Sequence record: OK331996.1
DNA: 64,000 nucleotides
Source of the DNA: Escherichia phage vB_EcoM-G157lw
Strand: one strand, 5' to 3'
Positions 25,197 through 59,647 of this stretch are shown here, piece by piece; within the stretch, counting starts at the first letter, position 1, and each line of letters opens with the position of its first letter. The notes under the pieces were generated by a model. It was not told the DNA's origin and did no database searches. It saw nothing but the letters and a program-made list of their open reading frames with translations. A program made the position numbers and the translations under genes.

Positions 25197-25284
25197 ATTT
25201 CAAAAATTTTTCACAAAACGGTTTACAAGCATAAAGCTTTATGGTACTATACAACTATCAACTGATACGGATTTGGAGAATAAA
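25195..25284 (+). repeat. promoter-leader module copy B
   Basis: tttcacaaaacgGTTTACaagc ... atggtactatacaactatcaactgatac. Confidence 0.75.
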
Positions 25285-26253
25285 ATGAAAACTGTAACTA
25301 TCAATAAGGGTATCTACTTCGGTAAAGAAATCTCTGGAACTTTTGAGCTCTTAGGCGAATGGTTCCCGGATAATGCTCCGGTAGATGCACAAGGAGATGG
25401 TAAAGTTTTTGTTGAAATTGACGGTAAACGTCGCGGTGTTTGGGTTTACAAATCAGACATTTCATATGATGGTGTAAAAGTTGAAGAAGTTAAAGAATCG
25501 TATGAAGATATGAAAACCCGCATTAATAAAAGATTTAATGTTATGGGAATGATGACGAATGGTATTATTAACGGAAACATTCGTTCATTAATTATTTCTG
25601 GTGCGGCGGGTATTGGTAAAACGTATTCTTTAGATAAAGCTTTAAATAAAGCAAATGATATTGGATACATTGAATATAAAAGCATTAATGGTAAAATCTC
25701 TGGTATTGGTCTTTATGAACAGCTTTGGAATAATCGTGAAGAGAATTCTGTCCTTTTGATTGATGATGTGGATGTTTTCTCTGATATGGACATTCTTAAT
25801 CTTCTGAAAGCTGCTCTGGACACTGGAGAGACCCGTAAAGTCTGCTGGAGCACTGCATCTTCTTACTTAGAAGAAAAAGGAATTGAGCGTGAGTTTGAAT
25901 TTAAAGGAACGATTGTTTTTATCACAAACGTTGACATTGACCGCGAATTAGACCGTGGTACTAAACTTGCTCCACATTTACAAGCATTAGTGTCCCGCTC
26001 AGTTTATTTGGATTTGGGTGTTCACACTAATGAAGAAATTATGGTCAGGGTTGAAGATGTTATTCTTTCAACTGACATGATGCAAAAGCGCGGTCTTTCT
26101 GATGAAGAAACTTATAAAGCATTATCATGGATGAAAGTCAATGTTAATCGTTTACGCAATGTTTCACTGCGTACTGCTCTTTATCTTGCTGACTTTATTA
26201 TGACCGACAAAAACGGTTGGGAAGAAATCGCTGAAACGGTATTATTAAAATGA
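25285..26253 (+). CDS. AAA-type ATPase, 322 aa
   Basis: Walker A GAAGIGKT, Walker B LLIDDVD; ATG after the GGAG of the conserved leader. Confidence 0.7.
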   Translation: MKTVTINKGIYFGKEISGTFELLGEWFPDNAPVDAQGDGKVFVEIDGKRRGVWVYKSDISYDGVKVEEVKESYEDMKTRINKRFNVMGMMTNGIINGNIRSLIISGAAGIGKTYSLDKALNKANDIGYIEYKSINGKISGIGLYEQLWNNREENSVLLIDDVDVFSDMDILNLLKAALDTGETRKVCWSTASSYLEEKGIEREFEFKGTIVFITNVDIDRELDRGTKLAPHLQALVSRSVYLDLGVHTNEEIMVRVEDVILSTDMMQKRGLSDEETYKALSWMKVNVNRLRNVSLRTALYLADFIMTDKNGWEEIAETVLLK

Positions 26254-27038: not shown

Positions 27039-27353
27039 ATGGAGGTAATGATGTTATACTCAAAGGCTCGTGAAATTTACGAAACTAAAATTAAAGAAGC
27101 AGTATTTCAGTTCGCAACAACAATGCGATGGACAAATGATTGGGAGTATTCAAAAAATCATAAGAAGCCTTTGGTGACAAGAAAGGCTCATATGTTAGTG
27201 TTAATAGACCGTGAGCAGATTAAAGCCCGAGAAGCCCTCCAGAATCATAAAAAGGCTGCCTTTGAATGGTTTATGGATAACACTGCTCCTGAGACTAAGA
27301 AAGCAGTGAGCGCTTGGTTCAGTGGAAAAAATTGTGAAAGAAGTTTCTTTTAG
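27039..27353 (+). CDS. hypothetical protein, 104 aa
   Basis: Track ORF. Confidence 0.55.
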   Translation: MEVMMLYSKAREIYETKIKEAVFQFATTMRWTNDWEYSKNHKKPLVTRKAHMLVLIDREQIKAREALQNHKKAAFEWFMDNTAPETKKAVSAWFSGKNCERSFF

Positions 27354-27413
27354 TTGTTTACAAGACCGTTCCTCTGTGGTACTATACAACTATCAACTAC
27401 GGAGGAACAGAAA
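27351..27413 (+). repeat. promoter-leader module copy C
   Basis: GTTTACaagaccgttcctctgtggtactatacaactatcaactac; two mismatches to copy D. Confidence 0.75.
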
Positions 27414-50260: not shown

Positions 50261-52957
50261 ATGAAAGAATTTTATATCTCTATCGAAACAGTCGGAAATA
50301 ACATTGTTGAACGTTATATTGATGAAAACGGAAAGGAACGTACTCGTGAAGTAGAATATCTTCCAACTATGTTTAGGCATTGTAAGGAAGAGTCAAAGTA
50401 CAAAGACATCTATGGTAAAAACTGCGCTCCTCAAAAATTTCCATCAATGAAAGATGCTCGAGATTGGATGAAACGAATGGAAGACATCGGTCTCGAAGCT
50501 CTCGGTATGAACGATTTTAAACTCGCTTATATCAGTGATACATACGGTTCAGAAATTGTTTATGACCGAAAATTTGTTCGTGTAGCTAACTGTGACATTG
50601 AGGTTACTGGTGATAAATTTCCTGACCCAATGAAAGCAGAATATGAAATTGATGCTATCACTCATTACGATTCAATTGATGATCGTTTTTATGTTTTCGA
50701 CCTTTTGAATTCAATGTATGGTTCAGTATCAAAATGGGATGCAAAGTTAGCTGCTAAGCTTGACTGTGAAGGTGGTGATGAAGTTCCTCAAGAAATTCTT
50801 GACCGAGTAATTTATATGCCATTCGATAATGAGCGTGATATGCTCATGGAATATATCAATCTCTGGGAACAGAAACGACCTGCCATTTTTACTGGTTGGA
50901 ATATTGAGGGATTTGACGTTCCGTATATCATGAATCGCGTTAAAATGGTTCTCGGTGAACGTAGTATGAAACGCTTCTCTCCAATCGGTCGAGTAAAATC
51001 TAAACTTATCCAAAATATGTACGGTAGCAAAGAAATTTATTCTATTGATGGCGTATCTATTCTTGATTATTTAGATTTGTATAAGAAATTCGCATTTACT
51101 AATTTGCCGTCATTCTCTTTGGAATCAGTTGCTCAGCATGAAACCAAAAAAGGTAAATTACCATACGACGGTCCTATTAATAAACTTCGTGAGACTAATC
51201 ATCAACGATACATTAGTTATAACATCATTGACGTAGAATCAGTTCAAGCAATTGATAAAATTCGCGGGTTTATCGATCTAGTTTTAAGTATGTCTTATTA
51301 CGCTAAAATGCCTTTTTCTGGTGTAATGAGTCCTATTAAAACTTGGGATGCTATTATTTTTAACTCATTGAAAGGTGAACATAAGGTTATTCCTCAACAA
51401 GGTTCGCACGTTAAACAAAGTTTTCCGGGTGCATTTGTATTTGAACCTAAACCAATTGCTCGTCGATATATTATGAGTTTTGACTTGACGTCTCTATATC
51501 CTAGCATTATTCGTCAGGTTAACATTAGTCCTGAGACTATTCGTGGACAATTTAAAGTTCATCCAATTCATGAATATATCGCAGGAACAGCTCCTAAACC
51601 GAGTGATGAATATTCTTGTTCTCCGAATGGATGGATGTATGATAAGCATCAAGAAGGTATCATTCCAAAGGAAATCGCTAAAGTATTTTTCCAGCGTAAA
51701 GACTGGAAAAAGAAAATGTTCGCTGAAGAAATGAATGCCGAAGCTATTAAAAAGATTATTATGAAAGGCGCAGGGTCTTGTTCAACTAAACCGGAAGTTG
51801 AACGATATGTTAAGTTCAGTGATGATTTCTTAAATGAACTATCGAATTATACTGAATCTGTTCTCAATAGTTTGATTGAAGAATGTGAAAAAGCGGCTAC
51901 ACTTGCTAATACAAATCAGCTGAACCGTAAAATTCTTATTAACAGCCTTTACGGTGCTCTTGGTAATATTCATTTCCGTTACTATGATTTGCGAAATGCT
52001 ACTGCTATCACAATTTTTGGTCAAGTTGGTATTCAGTGGATTGCTCGTAAAATTAATGAGTATCTGAATAAAGTGTGCGGAACTAATGGTGAAGATTTCA
52101 TCGCAGCAGGTGATACTGATTCGGTATATGTTTGTGTAGATAAAGTTATTGAAAAAGTTGGTCTTGACCGATTCAAAGAGCAGAACGATTTAGTTGAATT
52201 CATGAATCAGTTCGGTAAGAAAAAGATGGAACCTATGATTGATGTTGCATATCGTGAGTTATGTGATTATATGAATAACCGCGAGCATCTGATGCATATG
52301 GACCGTGAAGCTATTTCTTGCCCTCCACTTGGTTCAAAGGGCGTTGGTGGATTTTGGAAAGCGAAAAAGCGTTATGCTCTGAACGTTTATGATATGGAAG
52401 ATAAGCGATTTGCTGAACCGCATCTAAAAATCATGGGTATGGAAACTCAGCAAAGTTCAACGCCTAAAGCGGTTCAAGAAGCTCTTGAAGAAAGTATTCG
52501 TCGTATTCTTCAAGAAGGCGAAGAGTCTGTTCAAGAATATTATAAGAACTTTGAGAAAGAATATCGTCAACTTGACTATAAAGTTATTGCTGAAGTAAAA
52601 ACTGCGAACGATATAGCGAAATATGATGATAAAGGTTGGCCAGGATTTAAATGTCCATTCCATATTCGTGGTGTGTTAACTTATCGTCGAGCTGTTAGTG
52701 GTCTGGGTGTAGCTCCAATTTTGGATGGAAATAAAGTAATGGTTCTTCCATTGCGTGAAGGAAACCCATTTGGTGACAAATGCATTGCTTGGCCGTCGGG
52801 CACAGAACTTCCAAAAGAAATTCGTTCTGACGTACTGTCTTGGATTGACTACTCAACTTTGTTCCAAAAATCGTTTGTTAAACCGCTTGCGGGTATGTGT
52901 GAATCGGCTGGTATGGACTATGAGGAAAAAGCTTCGTTAGACTTCCTGTTTGGCTGA
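50261..52957 (+). CDS. 43: DNA polymerase gp43 (family B, with 3-5 exonuclease), 898 aa
   Basis: Exo motifs (ANCDIEV), pol motifs (DLTSLYPSII, YGDTDS); matches T4 gp43. Confidence 0.97.
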   Translation: MKEFYISIETVGNNIVERYIDENGKERTREVEYLPTMFRHCKEESKYKDIYGKNCAPQKFPSMKDARDWMKRMEDIGLEALGMNDFKLAYISDTYGSEIVYDRKFVRVANCDIEVTGDKFPDPMKAEYEIDAITHYDSIDDRFYVFDLLNSMYGSVSKWDAKLAAKLDCEGGDEVPQEILDRVIYMPFDNERDMLMEYINLWEQKRPAIFTGWNIEGFDVPYIMNRVKMVLGERSMKRFSPIGRVKSKLIQNMYGSKEIYSIDGVSILDYLDLYKKFAFTNLPSFSLESVAQHETKKGKLPYDGPINKLRETNHQRYISYNIIDVESVQAIDKIRGFIDLVLSMSYYAKMPFSGVMSPIKTWDAIIFNSLKGEHKVIPQQGSHVKQSFPGAFVFEPKPIARRYIMSFDLTSLYPSIIRQVNISPETIRGQFKVHPIHEYIAGTAPKPSDEYSCSPNGWMYDKHQEGIIPKEIAKVFFQRKDWKKKMFAEEMNAEAIKKIIMKGAGSCSTKPEVERYVKFSDDFLNELSNYTESVLNSLIEECEKAATLANTNQLNRKILINSLYGALGNIHFRYYDLRNATAITIFGQVGIQWIARKINEYLNKVCGTNGEDFIAAGDTDSVYVCVDKVIEKVGLDRFKEQNDLVEFMNQFGKKKMEPMIDVAYRELCDYMNNREHLMHMDREAISCPPLGSKGVGGFWKAKKRYALNVYDMEDKRFAEPHLKIMGMETQQSSTPKAVQEALEESIRRILQEGEESVQEYYKNFEKEYRQLDYKVIAEVKTANDIAKYDDKGWPGFKCPFHIRGVLTYRRAVSGLGVAPILDGNKVMVLPLREGNPFGDKCIAWPSGTELPKEIRSDVLSWIDYSTLFQKSFVKPLAGMCESAGMDYEEKASLDFLFG

Positions 52958-52970
52958 TAGAATAAATCTA

Positions 52971-52991
52971 GGGACCTCCGGGTCCCTTTTT
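52971..52991 (+). terminator. intrinsic terminator
   Basis: gggacctccgggtccc followed by ttttt. Confidence 0.7.
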
Positions 52992-53044: not shown

Positions 53045-53140
53045 AGAATTCCCTAAAAAATTTTCACAAAACTGTTTACAAGACTGTTCCTCTGCGGTAC
53101 TATACAACTATCAACTACTGATACAGATTTGGAGAATAAA
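53045..53140 (+). repeat. promoter-leader module copy D
   Basis: gaattccctaaaaaattttcacaaaactGTTTACaagactgttcctctgcggtactatacaactatcaactactgatacag. Confidence 0.75.
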
Positions 53141-53377
53141 ATGAAAATTGTTATGGGATGCTTAGCAGTTTGTTTAGTTGCATTAGCAGCAGTTCCATTT
53201 GTTAGTGTTGAAAATGATACTCAACCTATGATTGAATCTAGCACCGTTATTCACACTAATGGTAAAATATCAGTTAAAATTGATGATAATCTTCATGTGA
53301 ATACAAATGGATCTTTAGGTGTACAAATAGGTAATACCTGCATAAGCACTACTGGAGTAATTACTACTTGCATTTGA
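53141..53377 (+). CDS. small secreted protein with signal peptide, 78 aa
   Basis: ATG after the leader GGAG; N-terminal hydrophobic signal. Confidence 0.55.
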   Translation: MKIVMGCLAVCLVALAAVPFVSVENDTQPMIESSTVIHTNGKISVKIDDNLHVNTNGSLGVQIGNTCISTTGVITTCI

Positions 53378-53387
53378 GGAAATTATT

Positions 53388-53768
53388 ATGAAAATCGCTA
53401 TTTTGGTTATTGCATTAGGTCTTACTGGTTGTGTAGCTCAAGGACCGGTAGTAAATCAGTCTGATGTAGGAAAAATTGTAAATTGTTCAAGTAAATTTTA
53501 TAATCCTAATGTCAAGTGTTATAAAGAAGCTCCAAAGCAAACAGTAGAACAAATGCAGGCGAATTTTGACGAAGCTATTCGTCCAGATGAATCTGCTCAA
53601 GCATATCGTAATTCGGATGTAATTACACGCGAAGAAAAAATTGAAAACTACTGCGCCGAGCTTTGGGCTAATTGGGCTAATAATTACCAATGGCGTACCG
53701 GTAAAAATGCTCCGATGGAGTATGTAGTGAATTCTTATAATTCATGCGTAAAAAATTTAACTAAGTGA
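53388..53768 (+). CDS. predicted lipoprotein, 126 aa
   Basis: Signal peptide MKIAILVIALGLTGC with lipobox L-T-G-C. Confidence 0.6.
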   Translation: MKIAILVIALGLTGCVAQGPVVNQSDVGKIVNCSSKFYNPNVKCYKEAPKQTVEQMQANFDEAIRPDESAQAYRNSDVITREEKIENYCAELWANWANNYQWRTGKNAPMEYVVNSYNSCVKNLTK

Positions 53769-53775
53769 GGAAAAC

Positions 53776-54027
53776 ATGGAAACTTTAGTAGCAGGTTCAA
53801 TTTTTATGGTTTTAGTTTCAGGTGTGTTGGCTATTATTATATACATGCTTCCATGGTTCATCGCCTTGATGCGTGGGTCAAAATCGACAGTAGGAATCTT
53901 TTTCACGTCTTTACTGTTTAACTGGTCAATTATTGGTTGGTTTATTACATTTATTTGGTCAATTGCGGGTGAAACTAAAAAGTCTGCACAGCCAAATCAG
54001 GTAATTATCATCAGAGAGAAGGAATGA
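53776..54027 (+). CDS. imm: immunity to superinfection membrane protein Imm, 83 aa
   Basis: Two-TM 83-aa protein between 43 and 42; recalled similarity to T4 Imm. Confidence 0.75.
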   Translation: METLVAGSIFMVLVSGVLAIIIYMLPWFIALMRGSKSTVGIFFTSLLFNWSIIGWFITFIWSIAGETKKSAQPNQVIIIREKE

Positions 54028-54180
54028 AAAGCAAAATTATAGCAGTGTTGCTTTTAATCTTGATGATTATAATAAGTATATACTATAGTGTAACGGTTCC
54101 TCTTATGATTCCAACTATTATTTTAGGTTGGAGCTTATTACTGTTACAAGTTAAATATGAATGTATCAATTGAGGTTTAA

Positions 54181-54921
54181 ATGATTAGTGACTCTATGAC
54201 AGTTGAAGAAATCCGTCTTCATTTGGGGCTTGCATTAAAAGAAAAAGATTTCGTAGTTGATAAAACTGGTGTTAAAACTATTGAAATTATTGGCGCATCA
54301 TTTGTAGCAGATGAACCGTTTATTTTTGGCGCTCTTAATGATGAATACATTCAGCGTGAACTTGAATGGTATAAATCTAAGAGCTTGTTCGTTAAAGATA
54401 TTCCAGGTGAAACACCGAAGATTTGGCAACAAGTAGCATCTTCTAAAGGCGAAATTAACTCGAATTATGGTTGGGCTATTTGGTCAGAAGATAACTATGC
54501 CCAGTATGATATGTGTTTAGCTGAACTTGGTCAAAATCCTGATTCTCGACGTGGTATCATGATTTATACTCGTCCATCCATGCAATTTGACTATAATAAA
54601 GATGGTATGTCAGATTTCATGTGTACTAATACAGTACAGTACCTGATTCGTGATAAGAAAGTAAATGCAGTAGTAAGCATGCGCTCAAATGACGTGGTCT
54701 TCGGATTCCGTAATGATTATGCATGGCAAAAATACGTATTAGATAAATTAGTATCTGATTTGAATGCCGGCGATTCAACTCGTCAGTATAAAGCAGGTTC
54801 TATTATATGGAATGTCGGAAGTCTTCATGTATATTCTCGTCATTTTTACTTGGTTGATCATTGGTGGAATACTGGCGAAACTCATATTGTGAAAAAAGAC
54901 TATAAAGGTGTGTGGAAATGA
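54181..54921 (+). CDS. 42: dCMP hydroxymethylase gp42, 246 aa
   Basis: Thymidylate-synthase-like fold; size and position match T4 gp42. Confidence 0.9.
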   Translation: MISDSMTVEEIRLHLGLALKEKDFVVDKTGVKTIEIIGASFVADEPFIFGALNDEYIQRELEWYKSKSLFVKDIPGETPKIWQQVASSKGEINSNYGWAIWSEDNYAQYDMCLAELGQNPDSRRGIMIYTRPSMQFDYNKDGMSDFMCTNTVQYLIRDKKVNAVVSMRSNDVVFGFRNDYAWQKYVLDKLVSDLNAGDSTRQYKAGSIIWNVGSLHVYSRHFYLVDHWWNTGETHIVKKDYKGVWK

Positions 54922-55760
54922 TTCAATTCGTAATTCCAAGTTATCAGCGTGTCGGGGCAGTTTCTGCCCTTGATATGTTTCCGACTGATTATGAACCGCA
55001 TATTGTAGTGCGTGAACATGAAGAAAAAGCTTATTATGATGCCTATGGGTCTAGAGCTAAAATTATAACTATTCCTGATGATGTAAACGGAATTGCCGGT
55101 ACTCGTAAAGCAATTACTGATATGTATGCAGGTCAACGAATCTGGATGATTGACGATGATACTACTATTCGTATGAGTTCAATGCGAAAAAGAGATGACC
55201 GTCGTTGTGTAGATAAAGTCAATCAATTAACCCGTGAACAGTTCTATGAATTGATTCAATACGTCGAAGATGCCATGGATTGCGGGTATTATCACGGTCA
55301 TGCTCGTCTACCTATTTTTAAAATTACTTCATCTTGGGGTAATTATCGTGAAAATTCATATGGATTCACGAATACATGGTATGACCTTGGAAAACTTACG
55401 ACAGAACAAATTGGGTATGGAAAAATTGATTTGTGCGAAGATATGTATGCATTTCTCAATTTAATTAATCAAGGTTATCCGCATTTGGCCTTGTTCAAAT
55501 ATCTGGTTGTATCTGGAAAAGCACAAGCTCCTGGCGGGTGTAGTTCAATTCGTAGTAATTCTAAACATAATAGAGCGCTTGAGCAAATCAATAGAGAGTT
55601 TCCAGAGCAAGCTCGTTGGAAAACTTCTAATATTGAAAAACGAAAATCGTTGGGTGAAGAAGACGAGCCATTAAAGGTTCTTCGCATGTGTGTTTCGCGT
55701 AAAGAAAAATCAGAAGCATTTCATAAGTTTAATGCTATTCATCCAATAGCAGTTGATTAA
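54918..55760 (+). CDS. GT-A-type glycosyltransferase at the beta-gt locus (not T4 beta-gt), 280 aa
   Basis: DxD-like RIWMIDDDTTI; no similarity to recalled T4 beta-gt; ATG overlaps gene 42 stop. Confidence 0.65.
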   Translation: MIQFVIPSYQRVGAVSALDMFPTDYEPHIVVREHEEKAYYDAYGSRAKIITIPDDVNGIAGTRKAITDMYAGQRIWMIDDDTTIRMSSMRKRDDRRCVDKVNQLTREQFYELIQYVEDAMDCGYYHGHARLPIFKITSSWGNYRENSYGFTNTWYDLGKLTTEQIGYGKIDLCEDMYAFLNLINQGYPHLALFKYLVVSGKAQAPGGCSSIRSNSKHNRALEQINREFPEQARWKTSNIEKRKSLGEEDEPLKVLRMCVSRKEKSEAFHKFNAIHPIAVD

Positions 55761-59353: not shown

Positions 59354-59647
59354 ATGAAAAAATTTATTTTTGCTACAATTTTTACTTTGGCTTCTTGTGC
59401 TGCTCAGCCTGCTATGGCAGGATATGATAAAGACTTGTGTGAATGGTCTATGACTGCAGATCAGACTGAAGTTGAAACTCAAATTGAAGCGGATATTATG
59501 AATATTGTTGAGCGCGATCGTCCTAAAATGAAAGCTGAAGTGCAAAAACAACTTAAGTCTGGTGGTGTAATGCAGTATAATTATGTTCTGTATTGCGATA
59601 AAAACTTTAATAACAAAAATATCGTAACCGAAATCACAGGTGAATAA
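59354..59647 (+). CDS. sp: Spackle (61.3) periplasmic superinfection-exclusion protein, 97 aa
   Basis: Signal peptide MKKFIFATIFTLASCAAQPAMA; size and position match T4 sp. Confidence 0.7.
   Translation: MKKFIFATIFTLASCAAQPAMAGYDKDLCEWSMTADQTEVETQIEADIMNIVERDRPKMKAEVQKQLKSGGVMQYNYVLYCDKNFNNKNIVTEITGE

What the first reader, a model, noticed from the sequence alone, without database searches (positions are those of the whole stretch)
53141..53768. Secreted protein plus lipoprotein pair inserted between DNA polymerase and imm
Directly downstream of promoter-leader copy D, two genes encode a 78-aa protein with a signal peptide (MKIVMGCLAVCLVALAAVPF) and a 126-aa protein with a lipobox (LGLTGC). 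They sit next to imm, and sp lies further on, both known superinfection-exclusion genes. Phage-encoded lipoproteins often block receptors or periplasmic steps of infection, so these are candidates for an additional exclusion function. Delivery by a mobile promoter module fits accessory status.
Basis: partly seen in the sequence, partly recalled or inferred. Interest (0 to 1): 0.55.

Follow-up and report, generated by a model that had tools for sequence, protein, structure and literature searches.

The report
T4 imm.1 lipoprotein plus inserted ORFan
The two small exported-protein genes are real, but the lipoprotein is the long-annotated, still uncharacterised T4 gene imm.1, and only the 78-codon gene upstream of it is a strain-variable insertion, so this is mostly ordinary T-even genome content carrying an untested link to superinfection immunity.

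Summary
The window is a T2/T6-like Tequatrovirus. They lie behind a terminator hairpin and early promoter, and ahead of imm.

The 126-aa gene is not an insertion. It is the orthologue of T4 imm.1 (Pfam DUF5481, PHROG 1754), about 97% identical in DNA to T4 and in the same position. It is under very strong purifying selection (dN/dS 0.00-0.07). In T4 it is early-expressed and non-essential. Relatives sit directly upstream of imm in every imm-carrying lineage where I found one. The link is not obligatory: Dhakavirus and Gaprivervirus have imm alone, and a Karamvirus has an imm.1 relative with no detectable imm.

Only orf78 is inserted. It is a clean 247-bp insertion between the imm.1 leader and the imm.1 start codon. 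It occurs in about 325 Tequatrovirus records and is absent from T4 and T6; T2 carries an unrelated ORF in the same slot. It is coding (dN/dS 0.16-0.57, in-frame indels) and has no relatives outside the genus.

No fold or family match gives a function. An envelope-level role in phage-phage competition is plausible but untested. Receptor masking of the T5 Llp kind is unlikely. Both genes are already annotated as hypothetical proteins; interest is modest.

The parts
52970..52987 (+). Intrinsic-terminator hairpin after gene 43 (AGGGACC-TCCG-GGTCCCT, then a T run). It is the stem-loop half of the PeSL-type promoter-terminator module.
   Evidence: 7 pairs, 5 of them G-C. Conserved in T4, T2, T6 and in outgroup lineages upstream of imm.1.
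53055..53140 (+). Early promoter plus leader: A/T-rich upstream element, TTTACA at 53075-53080, TACTAT at 53098-53103, and a leader with SD GGAG at 53131-53134. One of six copies of repeat family D1 in the window.
   Evidence: Matches the PeSL promoter consensus TTTACW-N17-TAYWAT published for the PST/T4 pair (PMC4122927). The same leader plus ATGAAAA also precedes an unrelated ORF at 25261-25295 (family D4).
53141..53377 (+). orf78: 78-aa ORFan (PHROG 4189). It has an N-terminal 21-residue hydrophobic export or anchor segment. The mature part is about 55 aa, rich in Thr, Asn, Gly and Val, predicted beta-rich, and ends in C70...C77.
   Evidence: dN/dS is 0.16-0.57, with in-frame 21-nt duplications in relatives. 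Found in 325 phage records; restricted to Tequatrovirus.
53141..53387 (+). The 247-bp insertion relative to T4 and T6: orf78 plus a new SD for imm.1 (GAGGAAATTATT). It is bounded by an 8-bp direct repeat, ATGAAAAT, at 53141 and 53388.
   Evidence: Alignment with T4. T6 is empty, and T2 has a different 83-aa ORF with the same 3' junction.
53388..53768 (+). imm.1 orthologue: a 126-aa prolipoprotein. It has lipobox LTGC with Cys15 and Val at +2. The mature domain has four Cys and a confident C-terminal helical hairpin.
   Evidence: Pfam DUF5481 at 239 bits and PHROG 1754. T4 imm.1 occupies the same position. dN/dS is 0.00-0.07. AF2 gives pLDDT of about 90 for residues 81-125.
53776..54027 (+). 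imm, the superinfection immunity inner-membrane protein. It starts 7 nt after the imm.1 stop codon, and so looks like part of one transcription unit.
   Evidence: dN/dS is 0.
54024..54173 (+). 49-aa two-helix hydrophobic microprotein (PHROG 3610). Its ATG overlaps the imm stop codon (ATGA).
   Evidence: Conserved in T4 (not annotated in NC_000866), T2, T6, an uncultured lineage, Gaprivervirus and Dhakavirus.

Best explanation
The interval is the 5' end of the immediate-early imm transcription unit of a T2/T6-like Tequatrovirus. The order is: terminator hairpin, early promoter and leader, orf78, imm.1, imm, a 49-aa membrane peptide, then gene 42.

Shown:
- The 126-aa ORF is the orthologue of T4 imm.1 (DUF5481 / PHROG 1754).
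- It carries a canonical lipoprotein signal.
- It is very strongly conserved.
- In T4 it is expressed early and is dispensable in the laboratory.
- orf78 is a genus-restricted coding cassette inserted exactly between imm.1's own leader and imm.1's start codon. That slot is polymorphic: empty, orf78, or a T2-type ORF.

Inferred:
- Imm.1 is lipidated at Cys15. [quoted passage not shown]
- Its disulfide-stabilised domain faces the periplasm.
- There it acts within the first minutes of infection as an autonomous envelope-level function that complements Imm (inner membrane) and Sp (periplasm) against secondary infection or attack from outside. Its target would be common to all T-even phages, not a specific receptor.
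- orf78 is a faster-evolving, optional exported or membrane-anchored add-on to the same early envelope programme.

Rough confidence by layer: identity and architecture about 0.95; export and lipidation of Imm.1 about 0.85; a role in phage-phage competition at the envelope about 0.4.
For: Identity: T4 imm.1 is at the same position and about 97% identical in DNA. Pfam DUF5481 matches at E = 5e-72.

Export:
- The lipobox rule is met.
- The lipobox or an SPase I-type signal is kept in all 10 aligned family members.
- C89 and C120 are invariant or nearly so. C33 and C44 are present together or absent together, as expected for periplasmic disulfides.
- Residue +2 is V, G, A, Q or S, never D.

Selection: 16-17 synonymous against 0-1 non-synonymous differences between diverged Tequatroviruses.

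Expression and dispensability in T4:
- Early RNA and early protein, the same class as sp (PMC9697503 supplements).
- All 31 TA sites tolerate transposon insertion, as for imm with 20 of 20 (bioRxiv 10.1101/2025.11.20.689424 supplement).

Linkage with imm: a family member lies immediately upstream of imm in
- T4, T2 and T6;
- Mosigvirus ST0, where imm.1-imm-sp sit at a different genomic site;
- four uncultured lineages, one of them in a third context;
- Gelderlandvirus, Jiaodavirus and Citrobacter phage Ursula. Membership of these three in PHROG 1754 is confirmed at E = 3e-15 to 7e-46.

Cassette nature of orf78. Coding evidence.
Against: - No experiment or homology assigns any activity. Foldseek against the PDB gives nothing below E = 1.5. 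BFVD returns only family members. A PDB sequence-profile search gives nothing. PADLOC and NCBIfam give nothing meaningful.
- Linkage with imm is not obligatory. JS98 and RZ have 43 followed directly by imm, with no imm.1. Karamvirus KMB20 has an imm.1 relative but no detectable imm in 149 of its 174 kb.
- Adjacency could simply reflect inheritance of an old operon.
- From memory (Lu and Henning 1989, not readable here), imm alone on a plasmid confers immunity, so Imm.1 is not needed for that phenotype.
- A pattern match is not proof of lipidation. Sp also matches the lipobox rule, yet its mature form is reported as 75 residues (PMC7677548), which implies removal of about 22 residues and not cleavage at Cys15.
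- The AF2 models are weak: Imm.1 mean pLDDT 66 and orf78 mean pLDDT 51.
Confidence: 0.45

Rival explanations
1. Imm.1 is an obligate structural partner of Imm. The outer-membrane lipoprotein and the inner-membrane Imm, perhaps with the 49-aa peptide, form one trans-envelope complex that blocks DNA transfer at the injection site.
For: - imm.1 lies immediately upstream of imm across at least nine lineages and three genomic contexts.
- The intercistronic gap is 7-14 nt in most lineages.
- Both genes show matching extreme purifying selection.
- Both are non-essential in T4 Tn-seq.
Against: - Each gene occurs without the other. imm occurs alone in Dhakavirus and Gaprivervirus. An imm.1 relative occurs without detectable imm in Karamvirus KMB20.
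- Two lineages, P0018 and P0022, replaced the lipobox with an SPase I-type signal, so a fixed outer-membrane tether is not required.
- From memory, cloned imm alone gives immunity.
Confidence: 0.15
2. Imm.1 has an envelope role unrelated to phage-phage exclusion. Examples would be stabilising or remodelling the outer membrane or peptidoglycan of the infected cell, neutralising a host periplasmic enzyme or envelope-stress or defence pathway, or modulating lysis timing. Its position next to imm would then be historical.
For: - The imm.1 relative persists in a phage with no detectable imm.
- No similarity to any known exclusion protein was found.
- It is non-essential on K-12 in rich medium, which fits any conditional function.
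Against: - In Mosigvirus it is clustered with both known exclusion genes, imm and sp, at a relocated site.
- It has the same immediate-early timing as sp.
- T4 already has identified spanins and lysis-inhibition proteins (general knowledge).
Confidence: 0.27
3. The two genes are an accessory pair delivered together by a mobile promoter module. They block the phage's receptor or a receptor-proximal step, like T5 Llp or the Cor lipoproteins.
For: - The lipoprotein is predicted to go to the outer membrane.
- orf78 really is a cassette at a PeSL-type module.
Against: - imm.1 is present in T4, T2 and T6, and in outgroups, with its own promoter. It was therefore not delivered together with orf78.
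- Imm.1 differs by only 1-3 residues among T4, T2 and T6. By established knowledge these use different receptors (OmpC/LPS, FadL, Tsx), so a receptor-specific mask is unlikely.
- No sequence or fold similarity to any solved structure was found.
Confidence: 0.08
4. orf78 is not a functional gene. It would be a chance ORF in an inserted spacer.
For: - It is an ORFan with no relatives below 76% identity in 5.8 billion proteins.
- The structure model has low confidence.
- It is missing from T4 and T6 with no known consequence.
- It is disrupted in CT01.
Against: - dN/dS is 0.16-0.57, with 8-18 synonymous differences per pair.
- All length variants are in frame.
- It has a strong SD at optimal spacing.
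- It is intact over at least 80% of its length in 296 of the 325 records that carry it.
Confidence: 0.03

Closest known systems
Bacteriophage T4 Imm.1 (gene imm.1, NP_049661, UniProt P18057; Pfam DUF5481; PHROG 1754)
   Same: It has the same position between gene 43 and imm, about 97% DNA identity and 99% amino-acid identity. The promoter and leader, the lipobox and the length (126 against 125 aa) also match.
   Different: Nothing of substance. T4 has Ala where this phage has Thr in the lipobox, and it lacks the last Lys. In this phage, translation of imm.1 starts from a new SD created by the orf78 insertion and no longer from the leader SD.
PeSL promoter-early stem-loop modules of T4-type phages (Arbiol et al. 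2010, PMC2839356; Comeau et al. 2014, PMC4122927)
   Same: A terminator hairpin followed by an early promoter matching TTTACW-N17-TAYWAT. There are several copies per genome. An ORFan indel polymorphism lies directly beside it among close relatives.
   Different: Here the insertion lies downstream of the promoter and leader, at the start codon of the resident gene, and is bounded by an 8-bp ATGAAAAT repeat. The recombination mechanism itself was not tested.
T5 Llp and the Cor proteins of T1/phi80-type phages (superinfection-exclusion lipoproteins)
   Same: [quoted passage not shown]
   Different: There is no sequence or fold similarity. Imm.1 is nearly invariant among phages that use different receptors, so the receptor-plug mechanism is unlikely.
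T4 Spackle (gp61.3)
   Same: A small, early, exported, Cys-containing, mostly helical periplasmic protein. In Mosigvirus it is clustered with imm.1 and imm.
   Different: Profile comparison matches only the signal peptide. There is no evidence that Imm.1 binds the gp5 lysozyme.

Membership tests
T4 Imm.1 / Pfam DUF5481 (PF17578) / PHROG 1754 | Profile match above the curated threshold over the whole domain | tested here: met
   PF17578 scores 239.2 bits against a cutoff of 27 and covers profile positions 1-103 of 103. phrog_1754 matches at E = 5e-44 over the full length.
T4 Imm.1 / Pfam DUF5481 (PF17578) / PHROG 1754 | Orthologous position: downstream of gene 43 and immediately upstream of imm | tested here: met
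   The same arrangement is seen in T2 and T6.
Bacterial lipoprotein (PROSITE PS51257-type signal, SPase II substrate) | K/R in the first 7 residues, an uncharged h-region, [LVI][ASTVI][GAS]C with the Cys at position 15-35 | tested here: met
   (Cys15). The rule is also met in ST0, Mineola and STP4-a. It is lost in P0018 and P0022, which have AHA-type SPase I sites instead.
Bacterial lipoprotein (PROSITE PS51257-type signal, SPase II substrate) | Actual diacylglyceryl modification and Lol sorting to the outer membrane | not testable with these tools
   Only inferred, from the absence of Asp at +2. Sp also matches the pattern although its reported 75-residue mature form implies cleavage further downstream, so the pattern alone is not proof.
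Sec signal peptide, cleaved (for orf78) | n-region, an h-region of about 7-15 residues, and a c-region with small residues at -3 and -1 | tested here: inconclusive
   The n-region is MK and the hydrophobic run is 21 residues, which is long for a cleaved signal. A14-L15-A16 is the only AXA-like site, and it lies inside the hydrophobic run. Variants with 7-aa duplications lengthen the run, and in HY01 the duplication creates a lipobox. SignalP was not available.
PeSL (promoter-early stem-loop) mobile regulatory cassette | A stem-loop terminator followed by an early promoter of the lineage consensus, repeated in the genome and associated with indels between close relatives | tested here: met
   Hairpin and TTTACA-N17-TACTAT. 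Consensus from PMC4122927. Six copies in the window. Three alleles of the adjacent slot.
Llp/Cor-type receptor-blocking exclusion lipoproteins | Homology to Llp or Cor, or binding to the phage's own outer-membrane receptor | tested here: not met
   No Pfam family other than DUF5481 passes its cutoff. There is no hit to PDB sequences or folds. Binding was not testable, but near-identity of Imm.1 in T2, T4 and T6 argues against receptor specificity.
Spanin outer-membrane subunit (o-spanin) | A small late-expressed outer-membrane lipoprotein paired with or embedded in an i-spanin gene in the lysis cassette | tested here: not met
   It is driven by an early promoter and shows early RNA and protein in T4. 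It is not in a lysis cassette. By general knowledge, the T4 spanins are PseT.3 and PseT.2.
Superinfection immunity protein Imm (PF14373), for the neighbour only | Pfam match above threshold | tested here: met
   The product of 53776-54027 scores 58.2 bits against a cutoff of 27.9. Neither orf78 nor Imm.1 matches this family.

The most novel reading that the evidence does not exclude
Imm.1, perhaps together with the translationally coupled 49-aa membrane peptide and, where present, orf78, is an unrecognised third component of T-even superinfection immunity. In this reading it is a periplasm-facing, usually outer-membrane-anchored protein that intercepts a conserved part of the incoming tail tip or the DNA conduit. 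That would explain why its gene has travelled with imm through several genomic relocations, and it would give a handle on the still-unknown mechanism of Imm.
Probability: 0.2. Interest if true: 0.6.

Novelty: already known. Interest (0 to 1): 0.3.

Why it matters
How T4 Imm stops DNA entry has been unresolved since the 1970s. Only Spackle has a structural mechanism.

If the conserved early lipoprotein next to imm takes part in exclusion, it would be a new and easily testable component of a classic system. It would also be relevant to the design of phage cocktails, because T-even phages exclude one another.

As it stands, the practical value is annotation. The gene should be called imm.1, an exported lipoprotein of the DUF5481 family. 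It should not be called 'iduronate sulfatase' or 'immunity protein'. orf78 should be recognised as a variable cassette at a PeSL slot.

Tried and rejected
- **Structure-based function assignment.** AF2 of Imm.1 with a 7-sequence alignment gave mean pLDDT 66, with only the C-terminal helical hairpin confident. Foldseek against the PDB gave no hit below E = 1.5. BFVD returned only family members and a weak Citrobacter phage CF1 lipoprotein. AF2 of orf78 gave pLDDT 51 and was not searched.
- **Deep homology.** HMMER against 1.84 billion representatives found only 6 Imm.1 representatives. The word-indexed searches found 3, 14 and 8 clusters. A PDB profile search gave nothing. NCBIfam and PADLOC gave nothing meaningful.
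- **hhalign of the small Imm.1 alignment.** Against the Mineola and STP4-a lipoproteins it matched only the N-terminus or nothing. Full-length matches to the PHROG 1754 profile later settled membership.
- **Similarity of Imm.1 to Spackle.** Only the signal peptides match.
- **Paralogues.** None were found in the window for orf78, Imm.1 or the T2 cassette ORF.
- **Loss of orf78 in T4 by deletion between the ATGAAAAT repeats.** I considered this and rejected it as the primary event, because outgroups have the GGAGAATAT-ATG leader directly before imm.1. Secondary losses remain possible.
- **Literature.** Full-text searches for 'imm.1' mostly returned citation noise. There are no papers on DUF5481. 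The Miller 2003 T4 review was not held.
- **Counting empty-slot phages with a junction query.** This failed because the tool joins split pieces into one place.

Full report
**What is there.**
The window is a Tequatrovirus. On the + strand the order is:
- gene 43 DNA polymerase (50261-52957);
- a terminator hairpin (52970-52987);
- an early promoter, TTTACA-N17-TACTAT (53075-53103), and its leader;
- a 78-aa ORF (53141-53377, here called orf78);
- a 126-aa ORF (53388-53768);
- imm (53776-54027);
- a 49-aa ORF overlapping the imm stop codon (54024-54173);
- gene 42 (54181-54921);
- a T2/T6-type glucosyltransferase;
- uvsX.

sp is at 59354-59647. Both ORFs in the finding have good Shine-Dalgarno sequences.

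**The lipoprotein is T4 imm.1, not an insertion.**
- T4 (NC_000866) annotates imm.1 (NP_049661, 125 aa) exactly between gene 43 and imm.
- The DNA alignment is collinear and about 97% identical across the gene.
- The protein matches Pfam DUF5481 at 239 bits and PHROG 1754.
- tblastn finds it in 656 phage records. Of these, 501 are at 95% identity or more (Tequatrovirus) and 155 are at about 33% (Mosigvirus).
- T2 and T6 carry it with one or two amino-acid differences from this window.
- A published pan-genome analysis names Imm.1 among the gene products that set the T4 group core genome apart from the RB69 group (PMC5885020).
- Between diverged Tequatroviruses it shows 16-17 synonymous but only 0-1 non-synonymous differences (dN/dS 0.00-0.07). 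That is as constrained as imm.
- In T4 the RNA and the protein are both classed as early, like sp (PMC9697503 supplements).
- In T4, transposon insertions are tolerated at all 31 TA sites, as in imm (bioRxiv 10.1101/2025.11.20.689424 supplement).

**Imm.1 is an exported protein, usually lipid-anchored.**
- MKIAILVIALGLTGC meets the PROSITE-type lipobox rule. Only 4 of 994 ORF starts in the window do so.
- The lipobox is kept in most relatives. Two uncultured lineages have replaced it with an AHA-type signal-peptidase I site. The periplasmic location is therefore the constant feature and the anchor is optional.
- Residue +2 is never Asp, which by the E. coli Lol rule predicts outer-membrane sorting. 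This is an inference.
- C89 and C120 are essentially invariant. C33 and C44 appear or disappear together. That fits two periplasmic disulfides.
- AF2 gives a confident C-terminal helical hairpin (residues 81-125, pLDDT about 90) and an unconfident N-terminal half.
- No solved or predicted structure outside the family resembles it.

**Linkage with imm.** A PHROG 1754 member lies immediately upstream of imm in each of these:
- T4, T2 and T6;
- Mosigvirus ST0, where imm.1-imm-sp sit together between dmd and gene 61, a different genomic site;
- four uncultured lineages, one of them behind an frd.3-like gene;
- Gelderlandvirus STP4-a, Jiaodavirus Mineola and Citrobacter phage Ursula. Their family membership is confirmed by full-length PHROG matches.

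The Jiaodavirus version alone accounts for 148 further records.

The link is not obligatory. Dhakavirus JS98 and Gaprivervirus RZ have gene 43 followed directly by imm. Karamvirus KMB20 has an imm.1 relative between genes 43 and 42, but no imm was detectable by tblastn or by an Imm HMM in 149 of its 174 kb. I therefore favour an autonomous function that is usually co-expressed with imm. An obligate Imm-Imm.1 complex seems less likely.

**orf78 is the real insertion.**
- Relative to T4, the window has a clean 247-bp insertion that runs from the orf78 ATG to the base before the imm.1 ATG. It is bounded by an 8-bp ATGAAAAT repeat.
- T6 is empty like T4.
- T2, RB27, RB51, RB68 and about 27 other Tequatroviruses carry an unrelated 83-aa ORF with no signal peptide in the same slot. 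It shares the 3' junction GAGGAAATTATT-ATG.
- orf78 is in 325 records, and only in Tequatrovirus.
- Outgroup lineages have GGAGAATAT-ATG directly before imm.1. The empty state is therefore ancestral, and orf78 captured imm.1's own leader.
- The hairpin and promoter match the published PeSL consensus for the T4/PST group (PMC4122927).
- The module is repeated six times in the window. One copy shares the leader and the first codons with an unrelated gene.
- This fits PeSL-associated modular shuffling. Shigella phage CT01 shows a further rearrangement that duplicates the promoter and the imm.1 5' end and disrupts orf78.

**Is orf78 a gene, and what is it?**
- dN/dS is 0.16-0.57, with 8-18 synonymous differences per pair. 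All length variants are in frame, being 7-aa duplications in the hydrophobic segment. So it is coding, but it evolves much faster than its neighbours.
- The product has a 21-residue uncharged N-terminal segment. The mature part is about 55 aa, rich in Thr, Asn, Gly and Val, with a loose threefold TNGxxxVxI repeat and a conserved C-terminal CxxxxxxC.
- AF2 suggests a beta meander, but at pLDDT 51.
- Whether the N-terminus is cleaved or acts as a signal anchor cannot be decided here.
- No family or fold match exists.

**Mechanism.**
- Shown: identity, gene order, early promoter, export signals, selection, and the polymorphism of the slot.
- Inferred: Imm.1 is delivered to the periplasmic face of the outer membrane within minutes of infection. 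There it contributes to envelope-level defence of the infected cell, alongside Imm and Sp.
- A receptor mask of the T5 Llp kind is unlikely. Imm.1 is nearly identical in T2, T4 and T6, and by established knowledge these use different receptors.
- A spanin role is excluded by timing and context.
- An envelope function unrelated to exclusion remains a serious rival.

**Verdict.** It is partly wrong: the pair is not an inserted module, and the lipoprotein is a conserved, already named T4 gene. Nothing here is a new kind of system. The remaining value is a well-defined, cheap experiment on a conserved gene of unknown function next to imm.

Noticed in passing
window 54024-54173 (+): A 49-aa two-helix hydrophobic ORF whose ATG overlaps the imm stop codon (ATGA). 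It is conserved, with the motif PxMIPT..GW...LQxKYxCxN, in T4 (where NC_000866 leaves a 153-nt unannotated gap), T2, T6, an uncultured lineage, Gaprivervirus RZ and Dhakavirus JS98. It therefore follows imm even where imm.1 is absent. It is probably a translationally coupled partner of Imm.
   Followed up: partly
window 59354-59647 (+): The signal peptide of Spackle (MKKFIFATIFTLASC|AAQPAMA) also satisfies the lipobox rule, with Cys15. However, the mature protein is reported as 75 residues, which implies that about 22 residues are removed. This is a caution against reading lipidation from the pattern alone.
   Followed up: no
L020 4668-4919 (T2, AP018813, - strand): T2 and about 30 other Tequatroviruses carry an unrelated 83-aa ORF (MKNIQTNF..., no signal peptide) in the same slot as orf78, behind a different leader variant (CAACTACGGAGGAACA). 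That leader matches another promoter copy in this window at 27337-27409. Dhakaviruses have a 54%-identical homologue elsewhere in their genomes.
   Followed up: partly
L019 409-1246 (Shigella phage CT01, OK018184): The locus is rearranged. The promoter, leader and first 32 codons of imm.1 are duplicated and replace the 5' part of orf78. This leaves a truncated orf78 fused in frame through the second promoter copy into a full imm.1 (annotated as a 180-aa CDS). It is either a natural PeSL-type recombinant or an assembly artefact.
   Followed up: partly
L018 626-883 (phage HY01) and proteins P0006, P0014, P0015: In-frame 21-nt tandem duplications lengthen the hydrophobic N-terminus of orf78 (the unit is CLVALAA). 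In HY01 the duplication creates a lipobox, LAAC with Cys18, and UniRef names that variant 'Lipoprotein'.
   Followed up: partly
window 54912-55760 (+): Between gene 42 and uvsX the window has a 282-aa TAGT-family glucosyltransferase, as in T2 and T6. It does not have T4's beta-gt plus segA. The phage therefore probably makes T2/T6-type glucosylated hmC DNA.
   Followed up: no
window 25261-25295 versus 53117-53151: The leader, SD and first codons (ACTGATAC.GATTTGGAGAATAAAATGAAAA) are shared at 94% with the start of an unrelated 322-aa AAA/STAND-like NTPase ORF (25285-26253). The repeated module thus extends into the start codon region.
   Followed up: no
L026 1201-1650 and L028-L030 (Enterobacter phage KMB20, Karamvirus): This phage has an imm.1-family lipoprotein between genes 43 and 42, preceded by a 74-aa ORF with no signal peptide. 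No imm is detectable in 149 of its 174 kb. It is an example of imm.1 without imm. Record positions 100001-124999, which by T4 gene order should hold structural genes, were not scanned.
   Followed up: partly
public annotation of imm.1 (for example NC_000866 T4p046): RefSeq names T4 Imm.1 'iduronate sulfatase', and several records copy this. Others call it 'immunity protein'. T2 record AP018813 calls the slot ORF 'tail tape measure protein'. None of these names has support in the family or fold searches run here.
   Followed up: no
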